Sequence record: PX290280.1
DNA from: a phage
DNA length: 44,859 bases
Strand: one strand, 5' to 3'
Part shown: piece after piece, positions 6,375-31,863 of the stretch
How the letters are laid out: every line of letters begins with the position of its first letter
Position numbering within the stretch: position 1 is the stretch's first letter
Program-made: the position numbers and the translations under genes
The notes under the pieces: generated by a model
Database searches by the model: none
Seen by the model: the letters and a program-made list of their open reading frames with translations, nothing else
What the model was told of the DNA's origin: nothing

Positions 6375-6390
6375 GTCTCACATGTGAGAC
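6375..6390. repeat. 16-bp palindrome GTCTCACATGTGAGAC
   Basis: Perfect inverted repeat, ending 2 nt before the phage promoter at 6393. Confidence 0.8.
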
Positions 6391-6392
6391 TT

Positions 6393-6415
6393 ATTTACCG
6401 GACACTATAGGATAG
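6393..6415 (+). promoter_or_regulatory. Phage RNAP promoter (ATTTACCGGACACTATAGGATAG)
   Basis: Matches the 23-nt consensus shared by 12 sites. Confidence 0.7.
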
Positions 6416-6419
6416 CCGT

Positions 6420-6530
6420 CGGAGACGGGAAAGAAAGGGAAGATAAAGGATATAAAGGAAGTAATAGGTATTAAAGGTTATATAGGTTATCTAGGAATAC
6501 CTAGGAATACCTATTACCTTCTTCCTTCCT
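6420..6530. other. AT-rich iteron-like region between two phage promoters (candidate primary replication origin)
   Basis: Reiterated ATAAAGGA / ATAGGT motifs and a tandem CTAGGAATAC x2 (6491-6510), flanked by promoters at 6393 and 6587; same position as the T7 primary origin. Confidence 0.4.
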
Positions 6531-6565
6531 CTTATTACCACTTAGAGGAAGGGCAGACCTAGGTT

Positions 6566-6581
6566 GTCTCACATGTGAGAC
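6566..6581. repeat. 16-bp palindrome GTCTCACATGTGAGAC
   Basis: Perfect copy, ending 5 nt before the promoter at 6587; preceded by AAGGGCAGACCTAGGTT, which recurs at 44438-44454. Confidence 0.8.
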
Positions 6582-6586
6582 TTCGT

Positions 6587-6609
6587 ATTTACCGGACAGT
6601 ATAGATAAG
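6587..6609 (+). promoter_or_regulatory. Phage RNAP promoter variant (ATTTACCGGACAGTATAGATAAG)
   Basis: Consensus match with a C-to-G change in the core (GACAGTATAG). Confidence 0.55.
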
Positions 6610-6636
6610 ACTAACTCACTTTGGAGATTTTTAACC

Positions 6637-6765
6637 ATGCGTAACTTTGAGAAGATGACCCGTAAAGCTAACCGTTTTGACACGGAAGAAGGGCAGACGA
6701 AAGGCAAGAAGCTGAATAAACCTGTCCGTGACCGTGCATCTAAACGCGCTGCGTGGGAGTTCTAA
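6637..6765 (+). CDS. Hypothetical small basic protein (42 aa)
   Basis: GGAGA ribosome-binding site; immediately upstream of the primase gene. Confidence 0.45.
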   Translation: MRNFEKMTRKANRFDTEEGQTKGKKLNKPVRDRASKRAAWEF

Positions 6766-6768
6766 GTT

Positions 6769-8757
6769 ATGGCTATTATTCAGAATGTACCGTGTCCTGC
6801 CTGTCAAAAGAATGGACATGATATTACTGGCAACCATCTTATGATATTTGAGGATGGCGCTGGTTACTGTAACCGTGGTCACTTCCATGATAACGGCAAG
6901 CCTTATTACCATAAGCCAGAGGGTGGCATCGAGATAACCGAATTACCTATTACTGGCAATATCAAATATACACCTTCTCAGTTTAAAGAGATGGAGAAGG
7001 AAGGGAAGATTAGCGACCCTAAGCTACGCGCCATCGCACTTGGTGGTATGCGTATGAAAGACCGTTGGGAGGTCATGAATGAGCAAGAAAGGGCAGAACA
7101 AGAAGCAGAGTGGAAACTTGATGTTGAATGGTTCCTCACGCTTAAGCGTAAGAACCTTGTATCCCGTCACATTCGAGGTGACATCGCAGCAATGTACGAT
7201 GTGCGCGTTGGACACGATGAAGAGGGAAGAGTCAACCGTCACTATTATCCACGATATGAAAAGGGTGTGCTTGTTGGAGCAAAATGCCGGACGTTGCCGA
7301 AGGATTTTAAGTTCGGACACCTAGGTAAACTCTTTGGTATGCAAGACCTTTTCGGTATGAACACTTTGTCTCACGTGTTAGACAAGGGAAGACGAAAGGA
7401 TTGCTTGCTTATTGTGGGCGGCGAACTGGATGCACTAGCAGCACAGCAGATGCTCCTTGATTCTGCCAAGGGTACTAAGTGGGAAGGCCAGCCTTACCAT
7501 GTATGGTCTGTCAATAAAGGTGAGTCTTGCCTTGAAGAGATAGTGCAGAGCCGTGAGCATATCGCCCAATTCAAGAAGATTATATGGGGTTTTGATGGAG
7601 ATGAGGTGGGGCAGAAGCAGAACCAACAAGCTGCTCGCCTGTTTCCTGGCAAATCCTACATCCTCGAATACCCCTCTGGTTGCAAAGATGCTAACAAGGC
7701 ATTGATGGCTGGCAAGGCTAAAGAATTTGTGGATGCTTGGTTTAATGCAAAGTCATCTGATGAAGTCTTTGGTAGCCAGATTAAATCTATCGCATCTCAA
7801 AGGGATAAGCTCAAGGCTGCACGTCCAGAGCAAGGACTATCATGGCCTTGGCCTAAGCTGAACAAGGTAACGCTGGGTATTCGTAAGAACCAGCTTATCA
7901 TTATAGGTGCAGGCTCTGGTGTAGGTAAGACTGAGTTCCTTCGTGAAGTTGTTAAGCACCTCATTGAAGAACACGGTGAATCTGTAGGCATCATTTCTAC
8001 AGAAGACCCAATGGTCAAGGTGTCCCGTGCTTTTATCGGTAAGTGGATTGATAAGCGTATTGAGTTACCACCAACCAACGACCCGAAAGAAGACGGATAC
8101 CGTGAGGTGTTCGATTACACCGAGGAAGAAGCTAACGCTGCCATTGATTATGTGGCTGATACAGGAAAGCTATTTGTGGCTGACCTAGAAGGCGACTATT
8201 CGATGGAGAAGGTAGAGCAAACTTGCCTAGAGTTTGAGGCTATGGGAATTTCTAATATCATCATTGATAACTTAACGGGGATTAAATTAGATGAGCGTGC
8301 TTTTGGTGGGAAGGTTGGTGCACTTGATGAATGCGTCAAACGAATTGGTACTATCAAAGACCGACATGCGGTTACGATTTTCCTTGTCTCTCACCTTACA
8401 CGTCCTCCGGCAAACCGTACCCAACACGAAGAAGGTGGCGAAGTTATCCTTTCTGACTTCCGAGGCTCAGGCGCTATCGGATTCTGGGCATCTTACGCCT
8501 TGGGGATTGAGCGTAATACAAGAGCTGAAACGCTTGATGAAAGGACTACCACGTACATCTCTTGTGTCAAAGACCGCGACCAAGGTATCTACACAGGAAC
8601 CAAAGTCATGCTCAAGGGTGACATTCAGACCGGACGCTTGAGAGAACCACAAGCTAGAACAAGGTCGTTTGATACAGGCGAAGCAAGGCAACAAGAAGTA
8701 CCGGATTTACCGGACACTATAGAAGAGACAACATTTGACGATGAACAGGAGTTTTAA
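6769..8757 (+). CDS. DNA primase/helicase (T7 gp4-like)
   Basis: N-terminal zinc ribbon CPACQ...CNRGH, DnaB-type Walker A GAGSGVGKTE, and an acidic C-terminal tail ending DDEQEF. Confidence 0.9.
   Translation: MAIIQNVPCPACQKNGHDITGNHLMIFEDGAGYCNRGHFHDNGKPYYHKPEGGIEITELPITGNIKYTPSQFKEMEKEGKISDPKLRAIALGGMRMKDRWEVMNEQERAEQEAEWKLDVEWFLTLKRKNLVSRHIRGDIAAMYDVRVGHDEEGRVNRHYYPRYEKGVLVGAKCRTLPKDFKFGHLGKLFGMQDLFGMNTLSHVLDKGRRKDCLLIVGGELDALAAQQMLLDSAKGTKWEGQPYHVWSVNKGESCLEEIVQSREHIAQFKKIIWGFDGDEVGQKQNQQAARLFPGKSYILEYPSGCKDANKALMAGKAKEFVDAWFNAKSSDEVFGSQIKSIASQRDKLKAARPEQGLSWPWPKLNKVTLGIRKNQLIIIGAGSGVGKTEFLREVVKHLIEEHGESVGIISTEDPMVKVSRAFIGKWIDKRIELPPTNDPKEDGYREVFDYTEEEANAAIDYVADTGKLFVADLEGDYSMEKVEQTCLEFEAMGISNIIIDNLTGIKLDERAFGGKVGALDECVKRIGTIKDRHAVTIFLVSHLTRPPANRTQHEEGGEVILSDFRGSGAIGFWASYALGIERNTRAETLDERTTTYISCVKDRDQGIYTGTKVMLKGDIQTGRLREPQARTRSFDTGEARQQEVPDLPDTIEETTFDDEQEF
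8705..8727 (+). promoter_or_regulatory. Phage RNAP promoter inside the 3' end of the primase/helicase gene
   Basis: ATTTACCGGACACTATAGAAGAG. Confidence 0.7.
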
Positions 8758-8918
8758 TGGAAATTATTAAACCAGTATTGAATATCGGTATTGAAATCCT
8801 ATTCATGCTTGTGATCGCAGATTATGCTGCACGATATGGATTCAAGAAAGCTGTGAAACTTATCGTTGCATCTGGTTTTATGATGTCAATGTTCTTTATT
8901 GTAACACGCCTTATCTAG
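8757..8918 (+). CDS. Small membrane protein (53 aa, two predicted transmembrane segments)
   Basis: ATG overlaps the primase stop (TAATG); hydrophobic sequence. Confidence 0.45.
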   Translation: MEIIKPVLNIGIEILFMLVIADYAARYGFKKAVKLIVASGFMMSMFFIVTRLI

Positions 8919-8931
8919 TGTATTTATCAGG

Positions 8932-8955
8932 GCTTGTCTCACATGTGAGACAGGC
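8932..8955. repeat. Extended palindrome hairpin (gcttGTCTCACATGTGAGACaggc)
   Basis: Core palindrome plus flanking complementarity, followed by TCTTATT. Confidence 0.8.
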
Positions 8956-8990
8956 TCTTATTAAGTACATTAAATAACTGGAGATTGATT

Positions 8991-9713
8991 ATGTATAAAT
9001 TAGTATTGAATGTAGGTGATTATGTTCGTAACATCAATGAAGCCTCACGTCGTTATCGTTGCCGTGGTGTAGTGGCTCGTGTAAGTGAGAACATGTATCA
9101 TGTAGAATATGATGATGATATTAAGGCTTCTTATCACAAGAAAACCACACATAAATATCTTGAAAAGGTTGTAGAGGTAAACAATCAATGTAAGTGCATA
9201 CATGATGAGGTTTGCGATAAGTGTGCACGTCAGGTAGTTAAAGCCTTTACCTTTGCTCAACGCTATGGTTCTATGTATGGTGCTGGTAACAAGACCCTTG
9301 CAGAAGCAGCTTGGAAGACATTGCAGTTTGAGCGTTCAAATGGACGACGCACCGCACTTAAGAAAGAGCGCCGCAATGTAATCACTGGTAAGACTCAAAG
9401 TGAGATGATTAAGCAATATGGCACTGCATTAGGTGTTACACAGTTCAATACTCGTGCATTGGGTAAATCCACAGGGCAAGCTATGGTGAAAATTGGTGAA
9501 GCTATGATGCACCCAAATGTGCCTGTGCGAATCTTGGATGTTGACCATGCAATCACAGAGCATGGCACACCACGCCGTGTAGCTAACAATCATTTTGCCG
9601 ACACTATAGAAGGTATTATTCTTAAGCAAGGGTTGAAGGGTCTTCACATCTTAAATGGTGAAGAATTACTGTACCTACCTATCGTTACTGAAGAAACATA
9701 CGTGAATATCTAA
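8991..9713 (+). CDS. Hypothetical protein (240 aa) with a Cys cluster
   Basis: ATG 8991 with GGAGA ribosome-binding site (the track's upstream TTG is less likely); CKCIHDEVCDKC motif. Confidence 0.6.
   Translation: MYKLVLNVGDYVRNINEASRRYRCRGVVARVSENMYHVEYDDDIKASYHKKTTHKYLEKVVEVNNQCKCIHDEVCDKCARQVVKAFTFAQRYGSMYGAGNKTLAEAAWKTLQFERSNGRRTALKKERRNVITGKTQSEMIKQYGTALGVTQFNTRALGKSTGQAMVKIGEAMMHPNVPVRILDVDHAITEHGTPRRVANNHFADTIEGIILKQGLKGLHILNGEELLYLPIVTEETYVNI
9592..9614 (+). promoter_or_regulatory. Phage RNAP promoter inside a coding region
   Basis: ATTTTGCCGACACTATAGAAGGT. Confidence 0.55.
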
Positions 9714-9723
9714 GGAGTTAATC

Positions 9724-9942
9724 ATGACTAAGGTATTAATTTATATGCGTGGACCTCATAAATGCTATGCAGTTGTAGCACCTGATGGTGTTAAGCCCTA
9801 TGGTACTTCAAAGGGGTTTGCATTAATAGGTGCCAGTCTTAGTGCAAGTTTTCAGATGGAACTTTTCGGTCATTTGACTGAAAAAGAGTTCCGTGAGGAG
9901 TTTAATGTAATCGGCAGCTTTATGGTGAAACATGCAGAATAA
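9724..9942 (+). CDS. Hypothetical protein (72 aa)
   Basis: AAGGAG ribosome-binding site. Confidence 0.6.
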   Translation: MTKVLIYMRGPHKCYAVVAPDGVKPYGTSKGFALIGASLSASFQMELFGHLTEKEFREEFNVIGSFMVKHAE

Positions 9943-10108
9943 ACATAGTCTTAAAATGTTCGATGGTCATGAAGACCTGCAAGCCAAGATTACTAACCAA
10001 GCCTTCCTGTTCGCACAGTTAACTATGGCTGAAGCAAAGAAGAATAGCCTGACGCGTGAACAGGTTATCAAGGAAAGTGAAGTGAAACGTAAGATTCGCA
10101 GTCGATAA
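9932..10108 (+). CDS. Hypothetical protein (58 aa)
   Basis: Overlaps the previous ORF by 11 nt; GGTGA upstream. Confidence 0.4.
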   Translation: MQNKHSLKMFDGHEDLQAKITNQAFLFAQLTMAEAKKNSLTREQVIKESEVKRKIRSR

Positions 10109-10114
10109 GTCAAG

Positions 10115-10138
10115 GGTTGTCTCACACGTGAGACAGCC
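10115..10138. repeat. Palindrome hairpin variant (ggtTGTCTCACACGTGAGACAgcc)
   Basis: CACGTG centre instead of CATG; followed by TTTCAT. Confidence 0.75.
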
Positions 10139-10165
10139 TTTCATCATATTGATTGGAGGTGCATT

Positions 10166-10273
10166 ATGCCACGTGATTATGATTCTGATTGGGACTACTA
10201 TGACTCAATGAATCCAAAACCCGAACGTTCAGATGATTACTACGAAACAGAGGCAATGTATGAAGACTATTAA
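10166..10273 (+). CDS. Hypothetical small acidic protein (35 aa)
   Basis: Strong GGAGGTG ribosome-binding site; rich in D, Y and E. Confidence 0.45.
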   Translation: MPRDYDSDWDYYDSMNPKPERSDDYYETEAMYEDY

Positions 10274-10478
10274 ATTAAGCAAGGTTTGCTCTTGCGGTAA
10301 AGGTTATCGCAGTCGTATTGATGGCAAGTGTGAAAACTGCCGCACTAAAAGGCAGAAAGATCACAATAATAAATACCACATGCACTTAATGTATCTTGAC
10401 CTTAAAGCTACACCTGATTCTGTATTAGGTAAAAGTCTTAGAGTTAAATACTTTGGAGCAATCTATGAAATCAATTGA
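10260..10478 (+). CDS. Small zinc-finger-like protein (about 72 aa)
   Basis: CSCGKG...CENC motif; GAGG upstream; start taken at ATG 10260 rather than the track's 10233. Confidence 0.5.
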   Translation: MKTIKLSKVCSCGKGYRSRIDGKCENCRTKRQKDHNNKYHMHLMYLDLKATPDSVLGKSLRVKYFGAIYEIN

Positions 10479-12884
10479 TTGGAAGAAGGAAGCAGAAGGT
10501 CGTATCTTAGTAATGGATGCGGAAGCTAAAGGTCTGCTGGATACTATCCGCTACGGTCATCGTGAAGATGTACACATCATTTGCTGCATGGATTTGCTTA
10601 CTACAGAGGAGTTCTTATTCTTTGACCCATATGAGATGCGTGACCCTGAAGCAAGGGAACACCTGAAAGAGTGGGAAGGCCATCAAGATGGAACCTTGGT
10701 TGATGGTGTTAACTTCCTAAAGCACTGTGAAGCCATCGTCTCACAGAACTTCCTAGGGTACGACGGCCTTCTATTTGAGAAAGCATTCCCTGATATCTGG
10801 AAAGGCTTTAACTATACCGAGAGACGCGGCAAGGGCAGACTCCGCGCTGACCTGTGTCCGGTACGCGTCATGGATACGCTGGTCATGAGTCGCCTGTTAA
10901 ACCCCGATAGACGCCTTCCTCCGCAAGCATATGCCAAAGGTATGGGTAACGTCGCCCCTCACTCAATTGAGGCGCACGGCATCCGTATAGGCCGCTATAA
11001 ACCGGAGAACGAGGACTGGTCTAAACTAACTGACCACATGGTTCACCGTGTACGCGAGGACGTGGCGATAGGCCGTGACCTATTCCTCTGGCTATTTAAC
11101 GGAGAATGGACGGAGCACAAACGCCGTGGCGTGAATAAACGCACTGGCCTAGGTATTGAGACAGCCTTCCACATGGAGTCCATTGTGGCGCTGGAGATGA
11201 GCCGTCAGGCCGAGCGTGGATTCCGTCTGGATATAGATAAAGCATTAGCACGATGCGAAGAACTGGACGCTAAGATTGATGAGACAGTCGCAGCGTTCCG
11301 CCCTCACATGCCTATGCGTATCAAGTCTAAACCTTTTAAACCGGAAGAAAAGAATGAAGTATGCCAACGCGCAAATGAGTATGGAGCTAGCAACAATATA
11401 CCTACTGTCCTTGACCCCTCACACTTTCTTCATGCCGAGAGACGAGGAGATCGCAAGACAGTATGGAGTGTCACTACTAAGTCTGGTGATTGGTCGGCTA
11501 GTGTCAAGAAAGACTTTCCTCACCTTAGAGGAAACCGTAATGACACGCCAAGTATCAAGTGGATTGGCGCTTACTCGCCTGTTACTTTCGAAGAGATTCC
11601 CTTGGGTAACAGGGATACAGTTAAGCAAGTGCTCTATGATTATGGATGGAAAGGTGTTGAATTTAACGATACCGAGCAAGCGCATCTGGATGAGTATGGA
11701 GTGTTACCCAAACCTTGGAGTGGGAAGATAAATGAAAAGTCCCTTACTTTATGGCAAGAGAGAGCCGCACGTGAAGGTAAAACAGTCCCTGATTGGTGCT
11801 TGGGTATCGCTGCATGGTACATACTCGTATCCCGTCGTGGTACGATCCTTAACCGTGGTGACGTTGAAGCCTTCGACCAGAAGGGGGTGTGGCCTTCGCA
11901 AGCTGGTGTACGAAAGTGTCGCGGCCTTGTACCTGTAGCATTTAACAAGGAGTTAGGAATCAATGCGCAGCAATACTATGAGAGGTATGGGTGTTGGCCT
12001 ACGTCTGACAAGGATGACGGAGAGTGGCGTGTTCCGGCTGTGATGGTGCTGGTCTTGAACTACGTGTACTATCTCACTTCATGAATGACCCTGAGTATCA
12101 AGATATTGTACTGCATGGTGATATACATACTCATAACCAGATGAAGGCTGGTCTTCCCAAGCGTGATATGGCGAAGACATTTATATATGCCTTCTTATAT
12201 GGGTCTGGTATAGCTAACCTTGCAGCAGTATGCGGTGTTACTGAGGAAGAAATGAAGGAAGTTGTGGCAAGATTTGAGATTGAACTACCTTCCCTTGCAC
12301 GTCTTCGTGAGAATGTTATCGCACAAGGTAACAAGTTTGGCTATCTACAAGCACCTGATGGGCATTGGGGTCGCATCCGTATGTCTGGTGGTGAACTTAA
12401 AGAGCACACTATGCTTAACGTACTACTCCAGATGACTGGCTCTCTGTGTATGAAATACGCATTGGTCAGAGCGTTTGCAGTGATGCGCAAGGAGGGTGTG
12501 GCTCTAGATAGCATGGGTAACCCTTGCGGTGTAGCTAACGTGCACGATGAAATCCAGATGGAAGTACCTGAAGATGAGGTCTTGTATCTCAACTACGACT
12601 TGCCTTTCACCGTAGAAGGGTTCGAAACAGAGAAGGCTGCTGTGAAAGCAGTGTTCGATGCAGAGGAGAAACGTGTTCATGTGGATTCTGAAGGACGTAT
12701 GTGGTCTGCTGCAAATCTCGTTAGCGTTGATGCTGATGCTGGTGTACTTCATTGCCAGCGTCGTTATCACCGTGCAGGGCATATCATTGCCGATGCAATG
12801 ACTTGGGCTGGTCATTATTTGAAGATGCGTTGTCCGATGGCAGGTGAGTATAAGATTGGTGCAAGCTGGAAGGAAACACACTGA
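10465..12884 (+). CDS. DNA polymerase (family A, T7 gp5-like), interrupted by an apparent -1 frameshift near 12042
   Basis: The first frame reaches ...GEWRVPAV and stops at 12084. The next frame carries motif A DGAGLELRVLSHFM, motif B KTFIYAFLYGSG and motif C VHDEIQ, matching T7 DNAP as recalled. Re-reading G12042 joins them into one polypeptide. Confidence 0.85.
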
Positions 12885-13000
12885 TGGACAGGTTTGATGT
12901 TGTTTGCCTATTCTCTATCTTCTTTCTTATATTCCTTATGCTTGCTTGCTATGGAAGTATACGATTAGATATACCTGATGAAGAGGAGGGTTACGATTGA
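12884..13000 (+). CDS. Small hydrophobic peptide (38 aa)
   Basis: ATG overlaps the DNAP stop (TGATG); one predicted transmembrane helix. Confidence 0.4.
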   Translation: MDRFDVVCLFSIFFLIFLMLACYGSIRLDIPDEEEGYD

Positions 13001-13098
13001 TGCAAACTTCTTTTATCATTCTTGGGATCATATTATTTATGGTAGTATTCTGGGCTTTCTCTGGCATTGACCCAGATTGTGATGGTAACTACGACTGA
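13000..13098 (+). CDS. Small hydrophobic peptide (32 aa)
   Basis: ATG overlaps the previous stop (TGATG); one predicted transmembrane helix. Confidence 0.4.
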   Translation: MQTSFIILGIILFMVVFWAFSGIDPDCDGNYD

Positions 13099-13156
13099 GT
13101 TATACTCAAGGTCACTTACGAGTGGCCTTTATGAATAACTTAACTAAGGAAATATT

Positions 13157-13417: not shown

Positions 13418-13439
13418 TTTACTGGACACTATAGAAGGA
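13417..13439 (+). promoter_or_regulatory. Phage RNAP promoter (consensus copy)
   Basis: ATTTACTGGACACTATAGAAGGA. Confidence 0.8.
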
Positions 13440-13880: not shown

Positions 13881-13886
13881 GGAGTT

Positions 13887-15299: not shown

Positions 15300-15315
15300 G
15301 TCTCACGTGTGAGAC
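15300..15315. repeat. Palindrome variant (GTCTCACGTGTGAGAC)
   Basis: Stem GTCTCAC / GTGAGAC, located between a stop codon and the promoter at 15331. Confidence 0.7.
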
Positions 15316-15330
15316 AAGTCGGTGTCTGGT

Positions 15331-15353
15331 ATTTACTGGACACTATAGAAGAG
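15331..15353 (+). promoter_or_regulatory. Phage RNAP promoter
   Basis: ATTTACTGGACACTATAGAAGAG. Confidence 0.8.
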
Positions 15354-18555: not shown

Positions 18556-18604
18556 GGGCAGGTATTAGCTTGCCCTTGATTGTATAGTGAATGGAGGAAT
18601 GAAT

Positions 18605-19144
18605 ATGTCACACTATGTATGTAAGAAATGCCACAATCGCTATGATAATTGCACCTGTGATTACAGTAAAGATGGAAAGATTAAAGCAGGCGATTATGTT
18701 GTACGACGTGAAAATTATCGGAACTTAGATTGGCTTAAGGTGTGTAACAAATTAGGTAAGAAGCCTGATTCAGTTTTCAAAGTTATAAATGACGAATCGG
18801 TTGGTAGCGCCATTATGCTTGAAGGTATAGAAAAGAGAGAATGGTATGCACCTTACTTTGAGCAAGTAGCTACTCCTCCAGTTTTATCTGAGTCCAACAT
18901 GTTGGACAACAATATGGTTACTAAGCCTAAACACTACGAGTTCTTCGAAGGTGTAGAAGTAATCACTGTCATTGCCCGTAGCATGACAGAGAAGCAATTC
19001 GCTGGTTATTGCATGGGTAACGCTTTGAAATATCGTCTGCGTGCAGGTAAGAAATTCAACACTGAAGAAGATCTGAAGAAAGCAGACTACTACAAAGAGC
19101 TATTCCAGAAGCATCGTCACGAATGTATTGATGAGGATATTTAA
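18605..19144 (+). CDS. Conserved phage protein with an N-terminal Cys-rich zinc-binding motif
   Basis: CKKCHNRYDNCTC at the N-terminus; C-terminal block HYEFFEGVEVI...GNALKYRLRAGKK...DLKKADYY looks like a widespread phage domain; GGAGG ribosome-binding site. Confidence 0.6.
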   Translation: MSHYVCKKCHNRYDNCTCDYSKDGKIKAGDYVVRRENYRNLDWLKVCNKLGKKPDSVFKVINDESVGSAIMLEGIEKREWYAPYFEQVATPPVLSESNMLDNNMVTKPKHYEFFEGVEVITVIARSMTEKQFAGYCMGNALKYRLRAGKKFNTEEDLKKADYYKELFQKHRHECIDEDI

Positions 19145-24963: not shown

Positions 24964-24971
24964 TACCTATG

Positions 24972-25007
24972 CCCTATCTACCTTGCGTAGGTAGGGTTCT
25001 TTTTGTT
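24972..25007 (+). terminator. Terminator after the capsid gene (T-phi equivalent)
   Basis: ccctatctacc-ttgc-gtaggtaggg hairpin followed by TTCTTTTTGTT. Confidence 0.75.
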
Positions 25008-25017
25008 AGGAGGATTC

Positions 25018-25755
25018 ATGCCTGTTATTAAACAACAAAGTTACACTGGCTATACTGTCTCAGATGTAGCCTTTCAAGTGATTGATAGTAAGCTGGAGGC
25101 TGTTAACCTTTGTATGCGAGCCATTGGTCGTGAGGGTGTGGATTCTCTCGACTCAGGCGACCTTGATGCTGAAGATGCTAGCAAAATGATTGATATCGTC
25201 TCCCAACGTTTCCAATACAACAAAGGAGGTGGTTGGTGGTTTAACCGTGAGCCTAACTGGCAGCTTGCACCAGATACTAATGGTGAGGTTAATCTACCTA
25301 ATAACTGTCTAGCAGTATTGCAGTGCTATGCTTTAGGTGAGAAGAAAGTACCCATGACTATGCGAGCAGGTAAGCTCTACTCTACTTGGAGTCACACATT
25401 TGATATGCGTAAGCATGTTAATGCTAATGGTATGATTCGTCTTACCTTACTCACCTTACTCCCCTACGAGCATCTACCTACAAGTGTAATGCAGGCTATT
25501 GCCTATCAAGCTGCTGTAGAGTTTATTGTGTCTAAGGATGCAGATCAGACTAAGCTAGCCACTGCACAGCAGATTGCCACTCAGCTTCTTATGGATGTGC
25601 AATCAGAGCAAATGTCACAGAAGCGATTAAACATGCTGGTACATAACCCCACTCAGCGTCAGTTTGGTATCATGGCTGGTGGCTCTCAGAATGTACCTGC
25701 TTACTCTCATTCACCTTATGAGAGTTGGGCGCTCCGTCCGTGGGAGGATCGTTAA
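25018..25755 (+). CDS. Tail tubular protein A (gp11-like)
   Basis: AGGAGG ribosome-binding site; size and position after the capsid gene. Confidence 0.65.
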   Translation: MPVIKQQSYTGYTVSDVAFQVIDSKLEAVNLCMRAIGREGVDSLDSGDLDAEDASKMIDIVSQRFQYNKGGGWWFNREPNWQLAPDTNGEVNLPNNCLAVLQCYALGEKKVPMTMRAGKLYSTWSHTFDMRKHVNANGMIRLTLLTLLPYEHLPTSVMQAIAYQAAVEFIVSKDADQTKLATAQQIATQLLMDVQSEQMSQKRLNMLVHNPTQRQFGIMAGGSQNVPAYSHSPYESWALRPWEDR

Positions 25756-28157
25756 TGGAAGTACAAGGTTCATTAGGTAGACAAATCCAAGGGATTAGCC
25801 AGCAGCCGCCAGCGGTACGCTTGGATGGTCAGTGCACAGCTATGGTTAATATGATACCTGATGTAGTGAATGGTACTCAATCACGCATGGGTACAACTCA
25901 TATTGCAAAGATACTTGATGCGGGGACTGATGACATGGCTACTCATCATTATCGCAGAGGTGATGGTGATGAAGAGTATTTCTTCACGTTGAAGAAAGGA
26001 CAAGTTCCTGAGATATTTGATAAGTATGGGCGCAAATGTAATGTGACTTCACAAGATGCACCTATGACCTACCTCTCTGAGGTTGTTAATCCAAGGGAAG
26101 ATGTGCAATTCATGACGATAGCTGATGTTACTTTCATGCTTAATCGTAGGAAAGTAGTTAAAGCTAGTAACAGGAAGTCACCTAAAGTTGGAAACAAAGC
26201 CATTGTGTTTTGTGCGTATGGTCAATATGGTACATCTTATTCCATTGTAATTAATGGGACCAACGCTGCTAGTTTTAAAACACCGGATGGTGGAAGTGCA
26301 GACCATGTTGAACAAATTCGAACTGAACGTATCACTTCTGAATTGTACGCTAAGTTGCAGCAATGGAGCGGTGTGAGTGACTATGAAATACAAAGAGACG
26401 GTACTAGTATATTTATCGAGAGACGGGATGGTGCTAGCTTTACAATAACAACCACCGATGGTGCAAAAGGTAAGGACTTAGTGGCTATCAAGAATAAAGT
26501 TAGCTCTACTGACCTACTCCCTTCTCGTGCGCCTGCTGGTTATAAAGTACAAGTGTGGCCTACTGGCAGCAAACCTGAGTCTCGTTACTGGCTGCAAGCT
26601 GAGCCTAAAGAGGGAAACCTTGTGTCTTGGAAAGAAACAATAGCTGCTGATGTATTACTTGGGTTTGATAAAGGCACAATGCCTTACATTATTGAACGTA
26701 CAGGTATCATCGACGGCATAGCTCAATTCAAGATAAGACAAGGTGATTGGGAAGATCGTAAAGTAGGGGATGACTTGACTAACCCTATGCCTTCTTTTAT
26801 TGATGAGGAAGTACCCCAGACAATAGGTGGAATGTTCATGGTGCAGAACCGCCTATGCTTTACAGCAGGTGAAGCGGTTATTGCTTCTCGTACATCATAC
26901 TTCTTCGATTTCTTTCGTTATACGGTTATCTCTGCATTGGCAACTGACCCATTTGATATTTTCTCAGATGCTAGTGAAGTCTACCAGCTAAAACATGCAG
27001 TGACCTTAGATGGCGCTACCGTGTTGTTCTCTGATAAGTCACAATTCATACTGCCAGGCGATAAGCCTTTAGAGAAGTCAAATGCACTGCTTAAGCCTGT
27101 TACAACATTTGAAGTGAACAATAAGGTGAAGCCAGTAGTAACTGGTGAATCGGTAATGTTTGCCACTAATGATGGTTCTTACTCTGGTGTACGAGAGTTC
27201 TATACAGACTCTTATAGTGACACTAAGAAGGCACAAGCAATCACAAGTCATGTGAATAAGCTTATCGAAGGTAACATTATCAACATGGCAGCAAGCACCA
27301 ATGTCAACAGGTTACTTGTCACTACCGATAAGTATCGTAACATAATCTACTGCTACGATTGGTTATGGCAAGGAACAGACCGTGTACAATCAGCATGGCA
27401 TGTATGGAAGTGGCCTATAGGTACAAAGGTGCGAGGTATGTTTTATTCTGGCGAATTACTTTACCTGCTCCTTGAGAGAGGCAATGGTGTCTATCTGGAG
27501 AAGATGGATATGGGTGATGCATTAACCTATGGTTTAAATGATCGCATCCGAATGGATAGACAGGCAGAGTTAATCTTCCAGCATTTCAAAGCAGAAGATG
27601 AATGGGTATCTGAACCGCTCCCTTGGGTTCCTACTAACCCAGAACTTTTAGATTGCATCTTAATCGAGGGTTGGGATTCATATATTGGTGGTTCTTTCCT
27701 ATTCAAATACAACCCCGGTGATAACACCTTGTCTACAACCTTTGATATGCATGATGATAGCCACGTAAAAGCGAAGGTTATTGTTGGTCAGATTTACCCT
27801 CAAGAGTTTGAACCAACACCTGTAGTTATCAGAGATAGGCAAGACCGTGTATCCTATATTGATGTACCTGTTGTGGGATTAGTTCACCTTAATCTTGATA
27901 TGTATCCTGATTTCTCCGTGGAGGTTAAGAATGTGAAGAGTGGTAAAGTACGCAGGGTGCTAGCGTCAAACCGTATAGGTGGTGCTCTCAACAATACAGT
28001 AGGTTATGTTGAACCAAGAGAAGGTGTCTTCAGATTCCCACTGAGAGCTAAGAGTACGGATGCTGTTTATCGTATTATTGTAGAATCACCTCACACATTC
28101 CAGCTTCGTGATATTGAGTGGGAAGGGAGCTACAATCCAACCAAAAGGAGGGTCTAA
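25755..28157 (+). CDS. Tail tubular protein B (gp12-like)
   Basis: 800 aa; start overlaps the previous stop (TAATG); synteny. Confidence 0.65.
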   Translation: MEVQGSLGRQIQGISQQPPAVRLDGQCTAMVNMIPDVVNGTQSRMGTTHIAKILDAGTDDMATHHYRRGDGDEEYFFTLKKGQVPEIFDKYGRKCNVTSQDAPMTYLSEVVNPREDVQFMTIADVTFMLNRRKVVKASNRKSPKVGNKAIVFCAYGQYGTSYSIVINGTNAASFKTPDGGSADHVEQIRTERITSELYAKLQQWSGVSDYEIQRDGTSIFIERRDGASFTITTTDGAKGKDLVAIKNKVSSTDLLPSRAPAGYKVQVWPTGSKPESRYWLQAEPKEGNLVSWKETIAADVLLGFDKGTMPYIIERTGIIDGIAQFKIRQGDWEDRKVGDDLTNPMPSFIDEEVPQTIGGMFMVQNRLCFTAGEAVIASRTSYFFDFFRYTVISALATDPFDIFSDASEVYQLKHAVTLDGATVLFSDKSQFILPGDKPLEKSNALLKPVTTFEVNNKVKPVVTGESVMFATNDGSYSGVREFYTDSYSDTKKAQAITSHVNKLIEGNIINMAASTNVNRLLVTTDKYRNIIYCYDWLWQGTDRVQSAWHVWKWPIGTKVRGMFYSGELLYLLLERGNGVYLEKMDMGDALTYGLNDRIRMDRQAELIFQHFKAEDEWVSEPLPWVPTNPELLDCILIEGWDSYIGGSFLFKYNPGDNTLSTTFDMHDDSHVKAKVIVGQIYPQEFEPTPVVIRDRQDRVSYIDVPVVGLVHLNLDMYPDFSVEVKNVKSGKVRRVLASNRIGGALNNTVGYVEPREGVFRFPLRAKSTDAVYRIIVESPHTFQLRDIEWEGSYNPTKRRV

Positions 28158-28879
28158 TGGCTATAGGTTCAGCCGTTATGGCTGGTATGTCTTCTATTGG
28201 TAGCATGTTTGCAGGCAGTGGTGCAGCAGCCGCTGCTGGAGGTGCTGCCGCAGGTGGCGGAGGTTTGCTAGGTTCACTAGGTGGATTCCTAAGTGGCTCT
28301 ACTGCTGGTTTCTCTAATGCTGGCCTTCTTGGTGCTGGCCTTCAAGGGTTAGGATTGATTGGTGATCTATTTGGTGGAAGTGATGAAGCCAAAGCTATGA
28401 AGAAAGCTCAAGAGGAGCAATGGCGGCAGCAACTTATTGCTACACAAGAAGCATACAAAACAGTAGCAGATGCAGAACGCTCTGCTGCTAAACAGTACCA
28501 TGCAGACGCAATAAGCAATCAGGCTTCACTACTGCAGCAGAGAGCACAGGTTGCATTGCTTGCTGGTGCTGCTGGTACTGGTGGCAACTCTGTGTCTTCT
28601 ATGCTGAATGACTTAGCAGCAGAAGGCGGAAGGAACCAGAGTACAATTATTGATAACTATGAGAATCAGAAGATTAATTTCACCAACCAGCTTAAGTCCA
28701 TCCAACGGGGTGGTCAGATGCAGATACGTGAGTTTAAGAAACCTTCTGCCGTGAGCACCTTGGTGCAAGGTATACCAAGTCTGGCATCTGCCTATGTAAC
28801 AGGTAGTAAGTCCGGCATGGCTTTAGGTAAAGCTTTAACTGATTCTCGTACATATTCATCTGGAACAAGAGGTATTTAA
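28157..28879 (+). CDS. Internal virion protein (Gly/Ala-rich)
   Basis: Start overlaps the previous stop; GAAAGGGG-rich N-terminal region. Confidence 0.6.
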   Translation: MAIGSAVMAGMSSIGSMFAGSGAAAAAGGAAAGGGGLLGSLGGFLSGSTAGFSNAGLLGAGLQGLGLIGDLFGGSDEAKAMKKAQEEQWRQQLIATQEAYKTVADAERSAAKQYHADAISNQASLLQQRAQVALLAGAAGTGGNSVSSMLNDLAAEGGRNQSTIIDNYENQKINFTNQLKSIQRGGQMQIREFKKPSAVSTLVQGIPSLASAYVTGSKSGMALGKALTDSRTYSSGTRGI

Positions 28880-31827
28880 TGGCAATTGAGCGACAAGCAG
28901 TACAAGGTCTGCCACAAGTGCAGGCCACTTCTCCTAATGTCATGACCTTTGCACCTCAGCGAGTTGGAGGTGTGGAGGCTGGCGTAGCTTCTACCTCCGG
29001 TAGTCGATTTATCGAAGACCTTATTCGAGCAGCCAGTAGTGTAGCTGATGTAACCACTGGTATCCTTAATCAAAAGATTGAGGAAGATAAGGTTGTTCAA
29101 ATGGAACGGGCATATAACGGATTAATGCCTTCTGAGGATGCAACTCGTGGTGGCGCTCGTGCTAACATGCTTGTCAAAGCTCAACTGCTAGCTAATGATG
29201 AAGCAGCACGAATGAAAGACATGGCTACTCGTTTCCAAGGAACGGATGACGAGTGGACACAACTTATGGTTGACTCTCGTAATGAGATGCAGAATAAGCT
29301 GTTCCAGCAATACCCTGAGTTGCAAGGTGACAAAGATACTATGCGTATGGTCACTAATGTCTTCCAAGAACAGCAGCCTCAGATTTGGGCTACACGAACC
29401 CAGCATAAACTTGACCGTGAACAAGCAGACCGTGAGGATACCTTTGACGGGCGAGTGGCTTCTACTTGGGATTCTAATATTGACCCTGAAGCCTCTGGCT
29501 ATGCTTTACAGGAACGAATCCGCGAAGGTCTTACTCAAGGATTACTACCTGAACAGATGCACAAGAAGTTAGTCCAGCGAGCAATTTCACTTGCACAAGG
29601 CGGTGATGTTAGCATGGCTGAAGCCCTGAAGTATGTGAAGGACGATAAGGGTGTTTCTGTTTATGCTAAGAATCCACAGCTTATCACAGCCATCACTAGT
29701 GGTAATGCAGTTTGGGCTAGGAATAATGTAGCTGATGTAACTCGTATGTCTTTCGAAGTTAAAGAATCCTACCTTGCAGGTGATTTAACTGATGAAGAAT
29801 TGTTGGAACGAGCACAGCACATTAATAATCTGACAGGTAACTCTGTCTTCTCTAATCCAGAGCTAGAGGCACTGATGCGCCAACGGGCTAAGCAGAATGC
29901 AGAGCTAGGTGCAATGCAGGATATGCGACGTGAGCTTTACTCCGACCGCCTGACTGGCTTCCAAGGTAAGACTGATAAAGAGAAGAAGGCTTACATTGAT
30001 GTTATCAAACAGGATAGCCAACTTTATGCAGACCAGCAAATCAAACAACGTGGCTTGGACCCTTACAGTCAAGAGGCTGAAGCTATTCGTGGTGCAGTGG
30101 AAGTGCAGCGCCTGCAATTCATGAACTCCAAAGGCTTAGTGGATGATACCTTTGAGTCTCGTATCAAAGCCATGGAATCTATGCTATCGCCTGAGCACTT
30201 TGCCAAGGGCGAACCACAGGAGTTGATGACTATTCGCCAGTTGTGGGAACAGTTGCCAGAAGAGAGCCGAGGTGTCTTTGGTGACACGGTGAATGGCTAC
30301 ATGGATAACTACAACACTGCACTACAAATGGGAGAGACACCTTTGCAGGCTGCAAGGTTTGCGCGTGAAGCACAGCAGAAATTCTCTCGTACTGAGAAGG
30401 AAACCAAGAAGTTCAACTCAGCTATTGGAGATGCACTGGATGAGGTATCCGGTGCTGGCTGGTTTGATGGTAAAACCGAAGTGTCAGACTTAGGTAAAGC
30501 TATTGCGGAAGAAGAGTTACGAGCTAAGGCCAATATGTTGTGGTCTAGTGGTATGCGTAACATGGATTCTATCAAGAAGGCTTTAATTACTTGGGGCAAT
30601 AAACGCTACACTCAAACAGAGGATGCAAAGACTTCCGGTGGCTATTTCATTAAAGGTGATTACACTTCTGCATCTGATATGCTTATGTCAGTTGGGAAAG
30701 GCGTAAACCCTACCGATGTACCTCTGGCGCTTGGTAGGTATGTAGAAACACAGATGCCAGAATTGAAGAAGGAGCTTCAAGAGTGGGAAACTAAAGATGA
30801 TATATACATTGATTACAATGAACAGAAAGGAACTTTTGTGATTCGTGCTGGTGCAGCAGGTCGCCCTCTTTCTGGAGTAATCCCTGTAACCTCTTTAGAT
30901 ACTGCTTCACTACTAGATTCTGCCTATCAGAAGAAAGTAGAGGAACGAGATAAAGGCGAGTATGTCCACCCGTATCGTACAGATATTGGTGCACAAGAGC
31001 CTATGCCAGCTAAACCAACTGCCAAAGATATTGGTAAATTTGGACTAGCTAACTTCCTCATGTCTTCTGCTTTTGCTTCTGGTGAGAATCTGCCTTCTAA
31101 CTTCGAGATTAACTATCGAGGTAATATGCAACAATTCTATGACAAGCTAGCTATGGATGAGAATAAAGATAAAGTTGGCTTTAATAAGGCAACTGGAACC
31201 TTTACTCCATATAAAGACGCTCGCGGTGAGTCTATCGGTTACGGTCATTTCTTAACGGAAGAAGAGAAGCGAAACGGGTATATTAAGATTGGTGATGAAC
31301 TAGTTCCCTATCGAGGGTCTATGTCTCAGCTTACAGAGAGCAAGGCTCGCGCTCTTATGGAGCAAGATGCTAAGAAGCATGTGCCTCCTACTCGTGACTG
31401 GAAGATTCCGTTTGACCAGATGCATCCTGCACAGCAACGTGGCTTGATGGATTTAACCTACAATTTAGGTAAAGGTGGAATCCAGAACTCACCGCGTGCT
31501 CTTGCTGCATTCAAAGCTGGTAAGCTTACGGAAGGCTTTATCGAAATGCTGGGCACTGCATCAAGTGAAGGTAAGCGTATTCCTGGCCTACTGAAGCGAC
31601 GCGCTGAGGCATACAATATGGCATCTGCTGGTGGTGTGCCTAAGATTACCGAAGTGGAGACTCGTGAAGATGGCTCCATGTGGGTTAGGTTTGGTGGACC
31701 TATGCCAGCAGGTTCTGTCTCGGCATGGACTCATAAACGTATTGGCGCGGATGGTTGGTATCAGGTTTATGAGGCTGCACCTACCAAGTTAGCTAAAGGT
31801 TCTAAGGTAGGTAAAGTTAAGTTGTAG
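28879..31827 (+). CDS. Internal virion protein with a C-terminal lysozyme-like domain
   Basis: 982 aa; the segment YKDARGESIGYGHFLT ... LMDLTYNLGKGG parallels T4 lysozyme (YKDTEGYYTIGIGHLLT ... INMVFQMGETG) as recalled. Confidence 0.7.
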   Translation: MAIERQAVQGLPQVQATSPNVMTFAPQRVGGVEAGVASTSGSRFIEDLIRAASSVADVTTGILNQKIEEDKVVQMERAYNGLMPSEDATRGGARANMLVKAQLLANDEAARMKDMATRFQGTDDEWTQLMVDSRNEMQNKLFQQYPELQGDKDTMRMVTNVFQEQQPQIWATRTQHKLDREQADREDTFDGRVASTWDSNIDPEASGYALQERIREGLTQGLLPEQMHKKLVQRAISLAQGGDVSMAEALKYVKDDKGVSVYAKNPQLITAITSGNAVWARNNVADVTRMSFEVKESYLAGDLTDEELLERAQHINNLTGNSVFSNPELEALMRQRAKQNAELGAMQDMRRELYSDRLTGFQGKTDKEKKAYIDVIKQDSQLYADQQIKQRGLDPYSQEAEAIRGAVEVQRLQFMNSKGLVDDTFESRIKAMESMLSPEHFAKGEPQELMTIRQLWEQLPEESRGVFGDTVNGYMDNYNTALQMGETPLQAARFAREAQQKFSRTEKETKKFNSAIGDALDEVSGAGWFDGKTEVSDLGKAIAEEELRAKANMLWSSGMRNMDSIKKALITWGNKRYTQTEDAKTSGGYFIKGDYTSASDMLMSVGKGVNPTDVPLALGRYVETQMPELKKELQEWETKDDIYIDYNEQKGTFVIRAGAAGRPLSGVIPVTSLDTASLLDSAYQKKVEERDKGEYVHPYRTDIGAQEPMPAKPTAKDIGKFGLANFLMSSAFASGENLPSNFEINYRGNMQQFYDKLAMDENKDKVGFNKATGTFTPYKDARGESIGYGHFLTEEEKRNGYIKIGDELVPYRGSMSQLTESKARALMEQDAKKHVPPTRDWKIPFDQMHPAQQRGLMDLTYNLGKGGIQNSPRALAAFKAGKLTEGFIEMLGTASSEGKRIPGLLKRRAEAYNMASAGGVPKITEVETREDGSMWVRFGGPMPAGSVSAWTHKRIGADGWYQVYEAAPTKLAKGSKVGKVKL

Positions 31828-31841
31828 TACCTAACTCAAGG

Positions 31842-31863
31842 CTTGTCTCACATGTGAGACAGG
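31842..31863. repeat. Extended palindrome hairpin (cttGTCTCACATGTGAGACagg)
   Basis: Perfect core plus flanks, followed by TCTTTAT; between two internal virion protein genes. Confidence 0.8.

What the first reader, a model, noticed from the sequence alone, without database searches (positions are those of the whole stretch)
6375..31863. Seven copies of a 16-bp perfect palindrome GTCTCAC(A/G)TGTGAGAC at intergenic sites
Copies sit at 325-340 (one mismatch), 6375-6390, 6566-6581, 8936-8951, 10118-10133, 15300-15315 and 31845-31860. Several have extended flanking complementarity and a U-rich tail, and three lie immediately upstream of phage promoters. A 16-mer recurring this often in 45 kb is far from chance. 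Candidate roles are transcript 3' hairpins or terminators, processing sites, or a binding site for a dimeric DNA-binding protein.
Basis: seen in the sequence. Interest (0 to 1): 0.6.

Follow-up and report, generated by a model that had tools for sequence, protein, structure and literature searches.

The report
parS-like operator repeats for phage gp6
The repeated 16-base palindrome in this SP6/K1E-like phage is most likely the DNA binding site of gp6, an uncharacterised early phage protein with a ParB/KorB-type DNA-binding domain, and three copies also form the tip of RNase III processing hairpins; if confirmed, this phage group would have a sequence-specific DNA-binding regulator that has not been described for it.

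Summary
The window is a K1E/K1-5-like Vectrevirus. It carries GTCTCAC-RY-GTGAGAC at all seven listed places (0.02 expected), plus two missed copies: 7368 (inside the primase/helicase gene) and 18892 (variant GTCCAACATGTTGGAC, inside gp23).

The copies differ in context. Those at 8936, 10119 and 31845 cap T7-type RNase III sites (same ACUCAAGG…CUUUAUGAU scaffold as T7 R1.1; 105 G·U vs 0 A·C in the stem extensions; 11 compensatory pairs). Those at 6375, 6566 and 15300 are bare copies 2-15 bp upstream of phage promoters. One lies at the left end.

RNA structure does not explain why every copy has the same sequence, nor why that sequence changes in concert between lineages, even inside genes.

What gp6 binding does is unknown; binding itself is inferred, not shown.

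The parts
325..340 (.). Left-end copy, GTCTAACATGTGAGAC (hybrid half-sites), upstream of the host-type early promoters
   Evidence: It is positionally conserved in K1E, K1-5, SP6, PM93, Klebsiella, Erwinia and Nerthus-like genomes. In PM93 and Erwinia L032 it is followed directly by a phage promoter.
2726..3610 (+). gp6, an early gene immediately upstream of the RNAP gene and the candidate binding protein: N-terminal ParB/KorB-like HTH domain (res 10-122; HTH = helices 46-57 and 61-74), disordered acidic linker, long helix 196-234, J-domain-like C-terminal domain
6311..6340 (+). Intrinsic terminator after the RNAP gene (GGCCAT…GTGGCC plus T-run); the first promoter-proximal copy follows 34 nt later
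   Evidence: In Nerthus, the L039 group and Erwinia the palindrome abuts the T-run or follows it within a few nt.
6375..6390 (.). Bare copy 2 bp upstream of position -17 of the first phage promoter (6393-6410)
6566..6581 (.). Bare copy 5 bp upstream of position -17 of the second phage promoter (6587-6604); positional counterpart of T7 R1.1/phi1.1B upstream of the gene 1.1 homolog gp8 (6637-6765)
7368..7383 (.). Coding copy in the primase/helicase gene (codons S-H-V-L-D), GTCTCACGTGTTAGAC; the single mismatch is forced because GTGAGAC would create a TGA stop in this frame
   Evidence: It is identical in 14 of 14 Vectrevirus loci including synonymous positions. H/N switches with the genome's motif variant, and more distant relatives have unrelated residues at this position.
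8916..8972 (+). RNase III-type double-stem hairpin; palindrome 8936-8951 is its apical cap
   Evidence: -29.3 kcal/mol, z -8.7.
10099..10156 (+). RNase III-type double-stem hairpin; palindrome 10119-10134 is its apical cap
   Evidence: z -5.8; 24 pairs, 11 with compensatory changes; the Erwinia orthologs keep the scaffold without the palindrome.
13096..13142 (+). Canonical T7-style RNase III-type site without the palindrome (UACUCAAGGUCACUUACGAGUGGCCUUUAUGAAUAACU)
   Evidence: same in SP6 at 12234. It shows that the scaffold and the palindrome are separable.
15300..15315 (.). Bare copy 15 bp upstream of position -17 of the gp18 promoter (15331-15348)
18892..18907 (.). Variant copy GTCCAACATGTTGGAC inside gp23 (codons S-N-M-L-D); the SP6-type arm sits in a gp23 gene that is itself more SP6-like (76%) than K1-5-like (61%)
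31825..31881 (+). RNase III-type double-stem hairpin between gp35 and gp36, ACUCAAGGCUU[palindrome 31845-31860]AGGUCUUUAUGAU
   Evidence: (z -4.3).

Best explanation
The 16-mer is the core of an 18-bp, parS-like inverted repeat (W-GTCYMAC-RY-GTKRGAC-W). It most likely acts as double-stranded DNA, as the operator for gp6.

gp6 is an early phage protein made together with the phage RNA polymerase. It is predicted to have an N-terminal helix-turn-helix domain of the ParB/KorB/SopB type. A roughly 70-residue flexible linker joins this to a long helix that looks like a coiled coil and could mediate dimerisation, followed by a J-domain-like C-terminal domain. On this reading, two HTH domains of a dimer each read one 8-9 bp half-site. 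Helix residue 66 (with 63 and 65) would read the inner arm positions. The flexible linker would explain why 2-bp and 3-bp spacers are both tolerated.

The roughly nine sites lie at the left end, directly upstream of the first phage promoters after the RNAP-gene terminator (the region equivalent to the T7 primary origin), upstream of the gp18 promoter, inside genes, and at three intergenic junctions. A palindromic DNA site is automatically an RNA hairpin, so at those three junctions it has been accommodated at the apex of T7-type RNase III processing hairpins, where it serves as the upper stem.

Shown here: the repeat; its concerted lineage-specific variation; the RNase III-type RNA structures; the gp6 fold; the gp6-palindrome co-variation.

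Inferred: that gp6 binds the repeat, and what the binding does. My best guess for the consequence is KorB-like site-specific control or insulation of phage transcription units and the origin region (roadblock or promoter modulation). This step is not tested.
For: 1. All copies in a genome share one arm sequence, and lineages differ by two-sided changes: GTCTCAC, GTCCAAC, GTCTAAC:GTTGGAC, GTCTAGT, GTTTCAC, GTAACAC; spacer 2 or 3 bp.

2. Copies inside genes are held at the nucleotide level. The primase copy is identical in 14 of 14 Vectrevirus loci, and the encoded residue switches H/N with the genome's variant in both primase and RNAP. Distant relatives have unrelated residues there.

3. Outside the RNase III caps, position 4:13 shows T·G and C×A about equally (17 vs 16), and left-end copies are often hybrid half-sites. 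This is the behaviour expected of DNA half-sites, not of an RNA stem.

4. The centre is always R-Y or A-S-T and the flanks are W. This dyad-symmetric constraint extends the site to 18 bp. Orphan half-sites are not enriched.

6. Co-variation on the gp6 tree gives 5-6 independent joint changes: K66 with TCAC (Vectrevirus, Erwinia, Nerthus-like and others); N66 with CAAC; reversal N→K with CAAC→TCAC in Vectrevirus; H66 in SP6; W63/R66 with GTCTAGT; S65 with GTTTCAC; H63/T64/R66 with GTAACAC. K/R accompanying a C:G pair and N/H accompanying an A:T pair fits the usual amino acid-base preferences (established knowledge).

7. Co-occurrence: T7 has neither gp6 nor the repeat.

8. Sequence likeness to parS, TGTTNCACGTGAAACA; L074/L079 carry exactly the parS half-site GTTTCAC.

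9. Site positions are conserved as genome fractions across two subfamilies.
Against: - No binding experiment exists.
- gp6 lacks the ParB CTPase N-domain, so it is not a canonical ParB.
- From memory, KorB's base-specific contacts lie outside its HTH, so fold likeness alone does not place residue 66 on the bases.
- The first single-column test was not above its null: 3 such columns for Vectrevirus against 0-3 for other nested clades. The case rests on the additional lineages and on the residue's location.
- L086 has gp6 but no recurrent palindrome was found.
- L019 and L022 have N66 yet mostly GTCTAAC:GTTGGAC sites, as SP6 (H66) does.
- In SP6-like genomes the wobble is T·G on the + strand in all transcribed copies (about 14 to 0). 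This hints that RNA pairing also matters beyond the caps.
- The functional consequence of binding is unknown.
Confidence: 0.6

Rival explanations
1. Purely RNA-level element. The palindrome functions only as a hairpin in + strand transcripts: as the upper stem of RNase III sites and as a stand-alone 3' protective or processing hairpin upstream of promoters. Sequence identity among copies would be maintained by an RNA-binding factor, or by the need for copies to pair with one another, since a palindrome pairs with any other copy of itself.
For: - Three copies are integral to RNase III-type hairpins homologous in sequence to T7 R0.3, R0.5, R1.1, R4.7 and R18.5.
- Stem extensions show 105 G·U against 0 A·C.
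- 11 compensatory pairs.
- Cap copies never carry a mismatch.
- In SP6-like genomes the T·G wobble has + strand orientation in all transcribed copies.
- The R-Y centre would also allow copy-to-copy pairing.
- T7 RNase III sites also sit next to promoters.
Against: - Bare copies form only a 6-bp stem, no more stable than shuffled sequence (z about 0).
- Erwinia keeps the RNase III scaffolds without the palindrome yet keeps the palindrome elsewhere.
- Vectrevirus coding copies accept a mid-stem C×U mismatch in order to match the genome's arm sequence, although a perfectly paired CAAC form is codable.
- Klebsiella-type copies conserve C×A on the + strand.
- The left-end copy lies upstream of the early promoters.
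- This reading does not explain the co-variation with the gp6 helix.
Confidence: 0.2
2. A selfish or recombination-driven repeat (REP/MITE/PeSL-like). On this reading the palindrome spreads or is homogenised by template switching or gene conversion and marks module boundaries, with no trans-acting reader.
For: - Loop inversions (AC↔GT, ACT↔AGT) between orthologous sites of close relatives indicate hairpin-mediated template switching.
- Whole-arm swaps occur with identical flanks (K1-5 9570, L011 3222).
- Gene content varies next to several sites.
Against: - Sites are syntenic across two subfamilies rather than variably present.
- In-frame coding copies cannot be 16-nt insertions and are conserved at synonymous positions.
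- No transposase or RAYT-like gene was seen among the proteins scanned.
- The outer GTC/GAC and the W flanks are conserved over about 45% protein divergence.
Confidence: 0.08
3. Transcription terminators or pause sites for the phage or host RNA polymerase.
For: Several copies follow intrinsic terminators directly (Nerthus 6343 and 25824, the L039 group, Erwinia). Some are followed by U-rich sequence.
Against: - There is no consistent U-run.
- Copies lie inside the RNAP (in relatives), primase/helicase and gp23 genes.
- The hairpin is weak.
- The real terminator at 6311-6340 is a separate GC-rich hairpin with a T-run.
Confidence: 0.04

Closest known systems
KorB-OB system of plasmid RK2 (ParB-family global repressor with 13-bp palindromic operators)
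   Same: - The layout is DBD, long flexible linker, then a C-terminal module that dimerises in KorB and is presumed to in gp6.
- There are several palindromic sites per replicon, some directly upstream of promoters and others distant or inside operons (PMC11790492).
   Different: - gp6 has no ParB CTPase N-domain, so it cannot be a CTP-dependent sliding clamp.
- No KorA or IncC partner was identified.
- gp6 has a J-domain-like C-terminus.
- The operator sequence differs (GTCTCAC-RY-GTGAGAC against TTTAGCSGCTAAA).
- The context is a lytic phage that uses its own single-subunit RNAP.
Chromosomal ParB-parS (TGTTNCACGTGAAACA) and its relative Noc-NBS
   Same: - A 16-18 bp inverted repeat with nearly the same half-site: TGTTTCAC against TGTCTCAC. 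L074/L079 carry GTTTCAC exactly.
- The HTH DBD fold matches Spo0J, ParB and Noc.
- There are about ten dispersed sites, including some inside genes.
   Different: - There are 2-3 extra base pairs between the half-sites.
- There is no CTPase or spreading domain, and no ParA was identified.
- A lytic phage has no obvious need for partition.
T7 RNase III processing sites (R0.3, R0.5, R1.1, R4.7, R18.5)
   Same: - For copies 8936, 10119 and 31845: the same double-stem hairpin with an internal loop.
- The same flanking consensus, ACUCAAGG…CCUUUAUGAU.
- The same position just upstream of the next gene's Shine-Dalgarno sequence.
   Different: - T7 upper stems carry no shared apical module; here the apex is a genome-wide repeat.
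- Four of the window's copies have no RNase III scaffold.
- The window also has one canonical site without the repeat (13096-13142).
REP/BIME elements of E. coli and PeSL cassettes of T4-type phages
   Same: They are dispersed, sequence-conserved intergenic palindromes in transcribed DNA, often between a stem-loop or terminator and a promoter, with both DNA-level and RNA-level readings.
   Different: Positions here are syntenic rather than variable, copies also occur in frame inside genes, no dedicated transposase was seen, and the copy number is small and fixed.

Membership tests
T7-type RNase III processing site | Two-part hairpin: upper stem, internal loop, lower stem, about two helical turns in total | tested here: met
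   Met for 8936, 10119 and 31845 (13-bp upper stem plus 9-11-bp lower stem, z -4.3 to -8.7). Not met for 325, 6375, 6566 and 15300 (z about 0).
T7-type RNase III processing site | Flanking consensus shared by T7 R sites (ACUCAAGG … CCUUUAU^GAU) | tested here: met
   31845 matches fully. 10119 (AAGUCAAGG…CCUUUCAUCAU) and 8936 (UAUCAGGG…CUCUUAUUAAG) match in relaxed form.
T7-type RNase III processing site | Structure conserved by compensatory change, on the transcribed strand only | tested here: met
   11 of 24 pairs have double changes; 105 G·U against 0 A·C in the cap flanks.
T7-type RNase III processing site | Cleavage by host RNase III at the internal loop | not testable with these tools
   Needs in vitro cleavage or end mapping in rnc+ and rnc- hosts.
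ParB/KorB-type operator-protein pair | Dyad-symmetric 13-18 bp DNA site present in several copies | tested here: met
   Half-sites alone are not enriched.
ParB/KorB-type operator-protein pair | Cognate protein with the ParB-family HTH DNA-binding domain encoded by the same replicon | tested here: inconclusive
   [not shown]
ParB/KorB-type operator-protein pair | ParB N-terminal CTP-binding (ParB/Srx) domain | tested here: not met
   No Pfam hit. In the model the HTH domain starts at residue 10, leaving no room for such a domain. gp6 is therefore not filed as a ParB or KorB family member, only as having the same type of DNA-binding domain.
ParB/KorB-type operator-protein pair | Protein specificity residues co-vary with the site sequence | tested here: met
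   5-6 independent joint changes. Caveat: the single-column null.
ParB/KorB-type operator-protein pair | Direct, specific binding of the protein to the site | not testable with these tools
   Needs EMSA, ITC or ChIP.
ParB/KorB-type operator-protein pair | Partner ATPase (ParA/IncC) or co-repressor (KorA) | not tested
   Only about 30 early and middle proteins were scanned. None was annotated as an ATPase partner.
Intrinsic or T7 class I terminator | Stable GC-rich hairpin followed by a U-run | tested here: not met
   The genuine terminator at 6311-6340 is a separate element.
REP/MITE-like mobile palindrome | Variable presence at orthologous sites and an associated transposase | tested here: not met
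   Sites are syntenic across genera and subfamilies. No transposase was found among the scanned proteins.

The most novel reading that the evidence does not exclude
SP6/K1E-like phages and their Colwellvirinae relatives, usually thought to regulate themselves almost entirely through RNA polymerase switching, carry a conserved early 'operator regulon'. A CTPase-less ParB/KorB-type HTH protein fused to a J-like domain (gp6) would bind about nine parS-like sites. These flank the origin-type promoters, sit inside the RNAP and primase genes, and cap RNase III hairpins. Through them gp6 would control the early-to-middle switch, insulate transcription units, or organise replication of the phage genome.
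Probability: 0.45. Interest if true: 0.8.

Novelty: new variant of a known kind. Interest (0 to 1): 0.7.

Why it matters
T7-supergroup phages are textbook models and engineering chassis. Their programme is described in terms of promoters, RNase III sites, one terminator and polymerase inhibitors, and I know of no site-specific DNA-binding regulator described for them.

If gp6 binds these sites, a whole layer of control in a large, therapeutically used group (K1E, K1-5, SP6, and Klebsiella, Proteus, Erwinia and Pseudomonas phages) has been overlooked. In that case:
- gp6, now 'hypothetical' in hundreds of genomes, would get a function.
- There would be a natural series of matched protein-operator specificities (K/N/H/R at one helix position against the arm sequence) usable as orthogonal parts.
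- It would become clear why certain intergenic and even coding nucleotides must not be recoded when these phages are refactored.

The work also shows how a DNA site can hide at the tip of an RNA processing hairpin.

Tried and rejected
- Rfam at a permissive threshold found nothing relevant.
- Ten literature searches found no description of the motif, of gp6, or of a ParB/KorB-like protein in SP6-like phages. The SP6 and K1-5 genome papers (Dobbins 2004, Scholl 2004) are not held, so I cannot exclude that they mention the repeat or putative RNase III sites.
- The GenBank records of K1E, SP6 and K1-5 annotate no regulatory features.
- A search for a protein whose similarity pattern follows the motif type rather than the genome phylogeny found none.
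- The half-site enrichment test was negative.
- Pfam and PHROGs scans of about 30 early and middle proteins gave no annotated nucleic-acid-binding protein.
- A PDB sequence search with gp6 was negative.
- The first specificity-column scan was not above its null. It became convincing only with more lineages and the structural location.
- Primase recognition was considered and set aside. From memory, T7 primase reads GTC but SP6 primase reads GCA, and neither explains a 16-18 bp conserved element.
- CRP, IHF and MetJ-box resemblances were considered and dropped, because the hosts range from Pseudomonas to E. coli while the variants do not follow the host.
- Cruciform cleavage by the phage endonuclease VII was considered unlikely for 7-bp arms.

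Full report
**What the window is.** Megablast places the window in Vectrevirus, the K1E/K1-5-like phages of the SP6 supergroup, at about 95% identity to K1E. Genes run left to right, as in K1E.

**Check of the observation.** The pattern GTCTCAC-RY-GTGAGAC occurs at 325 (one mismatch), 6375, 6566, 8936, 10119, 15300 and 31845. Shuffled sequence expects 0.02 matches. Copies with a GT or AC centre are not strictly palindromic. Two copies were missed: 7368, inside the primase/helicase gene, and 18892, the variant GTCCAACATGTTGGAC inside gp23. Phage promoters (ATTTACyGGACAsTATAG) begin 2, 5 and 15 bp downstream of the copies at 6375, 6566 and 15300.

**Two structural contexts.** At 8936, 10119 and 31845 the flanks extend the stem to 13 bp, and a second, lower helix follows an internal loop (z -8.7, -5.8, -4.3). 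At 325, 6375, 6566 and 15300 the 16-mer stands alone and folds no better than shuffled sequence.

The extended sites are T7-type RNase III sites.
- T7 R0.3, R0.5, R1.1, R4.7 and R18.5 all read ACUCAAGG-hairpin-CCUUUAU^GAU with a lower stem. The sequences are; the cleavage coordinates are from my memory of Dunn & Studier 1983.
- Window 31845 reads ACUCAAGGCUU-[16-mer]-AGGUCUUUAUGAU.
- Across 52 such cap copies in relatives, the 7-nt stem extensions hold 254 Watson-Crick pairs, 105 G·U pairs and no A·C pairs. These stems therefore work as + strand RNA.
- RNAalifold on 21 orthologs of the 10119 site gives 24 pairs, 11 of them with compensatory double changes.

The scaffold and the 16-mer are separable. 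The window has a canonical site without the 16-mer at 13096-13142. Erwinia phage S2 keeps the scaffolds at two junctions with unrelated apical stems.

**The repeat is a family that evolves in concert.**
- SP6 carries GTCTAAC-NN-GTTGGAC or GTCCAAC-NN-GTTGGAC at the same syntenic places.
- Klebsiella and Proteus relatives carry GTCCAAC..GTTGGAC. In Proteus PM93 the spacer is 3 nt at four sites and 2 nt at the left end.
- Erwinia phages and the Colwellvirinae phage Nerthus and its relatives carry GTCTCAC..GTGAGAC; in the Nerthus group the spacer is 3 nt.
- Other groups carry GTCTAGT-AY-ACTAGAC, GTTTCAC..GTGAAAC and GTAACAC-GC-GTGTTAC.
- The outer GTC/GAC, an R-Y (or A-S-T) centre and W at the flanking positions are constant.
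- Site positions are conserved as genome fractions: 0.01, 0.11, 0.14, 0.15, 0.16, 0.20, 0.22, 0.33, 0.41 and 0.71.
- The recurrent layout of terminator, palindrome and first phage promoter holds in every group. Because gp8 is a T7 gene 1.1 homolog, this region corresponds to T7's phi1.1A-R1.1-phi1.1B origin region.

**Why an RNA hairpin alone is not enough.**
- Coding copies are held at the nucleotide level. In the primase gene all 14 Vectrevirus loci read GTCTCACGTGTTAGAC, synonymous positions included. SP6-like and Klebsiella-like loci read GTCTAAC/GTCCAAC-GT-GTTGGAC, and the encoded residue switches H/N accordingly. More distant relatives have unrelated residues there (TAFLD, RDVMA, AKVAA). 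The RNAP gene of several relatives carries a copy with the same behaviour.
- The one mismatch in Vectrevirus coding copies is forced, because GTGAGAC would create TGA in that frame. A perfectly paired CAAC form is codable, yet it was replaced. Matching the genome's own arm sequence therefore matters more than pairing.
- Outside the caps, T·G and C×A at position 4:13 are equally common (17 vs 16), and left-end copies are frequently hybrid half-sites.
- Orphan half-sites are not enriched.

**The candidate reader, gp6.** No annotated nucleic-acid-binding protein was found, and no protein shows a phylogeny-discordant similarity pattern. A scan looked for protein columns in which TCAC-type genomes share a residue that CAAC-type genomes lack. 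It flagged gp6 residue 66 (K versus N/H), although the count of such columns was not above a clade-swap null.

Inspection changed the weight of this lead. Residue 66 lies in a nearly invariant helix, F-G/S-I-K-K-A-Q-x-Y-X-L-M. In further lineages the same helix changes together with the palindrome:
- W63/R66 with GTCTAGT.
- S65 with GTTTCAC.
- H63/T64/R66 with GTAACAC.

On a gp6 tree, Vectrevirus (K, TCAC) is nested within the N/H, CAAC clade, with K, TCAC outgroups. This gives five to six independent joint changes, with no counter-example among loci that have a palindrome. T7 has neither gp6 nor the repeat.

**gp6 structure.**
- An AlphaFold2 model from 61 diverse homologs is confident for residues 10-122 (pLDDT about 95). 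Helices 46-57 and 61-74 form a helix-turn-helix.
- Residues 125-195 are disordered, 196-234 form one long helix, and 239-293 form a confident helical domain.
- Foldseek lists the same ParB-family DNA complexes, weakly.
- Viral structure neighbours are uncharacterised DUF3102 proteins.
- gp6 has no ParB CTPase domain, so it is not a ParB or KorB family member. It shares only their type of DNA-binding domain and the DBD-linker-C-terminal-module layout.
- The motif itself resembles parS: TGTTNCACGTGAAACA against TGTCTCAC-AT-GTGAGACA.

**Interpretation.** The most economical reading is that the repeat is a DNA operator for a gp6 dimer. Its palindromic nature let it be placed at the apex of RNase III hairpins at crowded junctions. 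K or R accompanying a C:G pair and N or H accompanying an A:T pair at arm position 5 fits common amino acid-base preferences (established knowledge). The long flexible linker fits tolerance of 2- and 3-bp spacers.

What binding achieves is not shown. The sites abut terminators and the first phage promoters at variable spacing (0-15 bp). This argues against a fixed contact with the polymerase. It is compatible with a roadblock or insulator, KorB-like promoter control, or an origin-organising role.

**Caveats.**
- Binding is inferred.
- The fold scores are moderate.
- From memory, KorB reads its operator with residues outside the HTH.
- L086 has gp6 but no repeat was found.
- The strict + strand T·G orientation in SP6-like genomes suggests that RNA pairing has some weight beyond the caps.
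- The original SP6 and K1-5 genome papers could not be read.

**Verdict.** The system is a new variant of a known kind (an HTH protein with a palindromic operator, of ParB/KorB type) in a phage group where none was described in the literature I could search.

Noticed in passing
window 13096-13142: A canonical T7-style RNase III-type hairpin (UACUCAAGGUCACUUACGAGUGGCCUUUAUGAAUAACU) between the DNA polymerase gene and the next ORF. It has no palindrome cap and is identical in style to T7 R1.1. It is conserved in SP6 at 12234.
   Followed up: partly
window 15321-15344: A second hairpin 5 nt after the 15300 copy pairs GGUGUCUGGU with ACUGGACACU, i.e. with the phage promoter's own -13 to -4 bases. 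SP6 and PM93 keep it, with changes that follow each phage's promoter sequence. This resembles T7 R6.5 and R13, where a promoter lies inside an RNase III hairpin.
   Followed up: partly
window 6428-6560: Between the two promoter-proximal copies lies a purine-rich then pyrimidine-rich stretch with a long imperfect inverted repeat (…GGAAGTAATAGGTATT … AATACCTATTACCTTCTTCC…). Similar stretches occur in SP6, PM93 and the Klebsiella phage. By position it corresponds to the T7 primary origin of replication.
   Followed up: no
[not shown]
   Followed up: partly
L044 (IMGVR_UViG_3300013099_000003), 744-20799: A distant 57.6-kb phage contig (26% helicase identity) carries the 12-bp palindrome GTCTCTAGAGAC, or GTCTCYRGAGAC, 18 times in 21.6 kb, mostly inside ORFs. 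No gp6 homolog is present in the fetched stretch. It shares GTCTC/GAGAC with the window's motif but remains unexplained.
   Followed up: partly
L039 162, 7940, 8018, 16306; L034 9509, 18104: The GTCTAGT-type phages carry a second recurrent inverted repeat, (G)TACTAG-NNNN-CTAGTA(C), usually 12-14 bp downstream of the first and upstream of the phage promoter.
   Followed up: no
window 10453-12884: The DNA polymerase reading frame is split into two overlapping ORFs (10453-12084 and 12024-12884), whereas K1E annotates one 2547-nt gene. This could be a frameshift, a sequencing error or a real discontinuity.
   Followed up: no
window 18587-19144 (gp23): gp23 is mosaic: 76% identical to SP6 but only 61% to K1-5. 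It carries the SP6-type palindrome variant, so the copy probably arrived by recombination.
   Followed up: partly
window 38599-38620: A run of alternating TA of about 20 nt just after the promoter at about 38545, picked up by the palindrome scan.
   Followed up: no
K1-5 (L003) 9570; L011 3222: Two Vectrevirus genomes have a full four-base arm swap to GTCCAAC..GTTGGAC at one RNase III cap, with flanks otherwise identical to the window. In K1-5 the sequence about 25 nt further right becomes SP6-like, suggesting a recombination junction near the site.
   Followed up: partly
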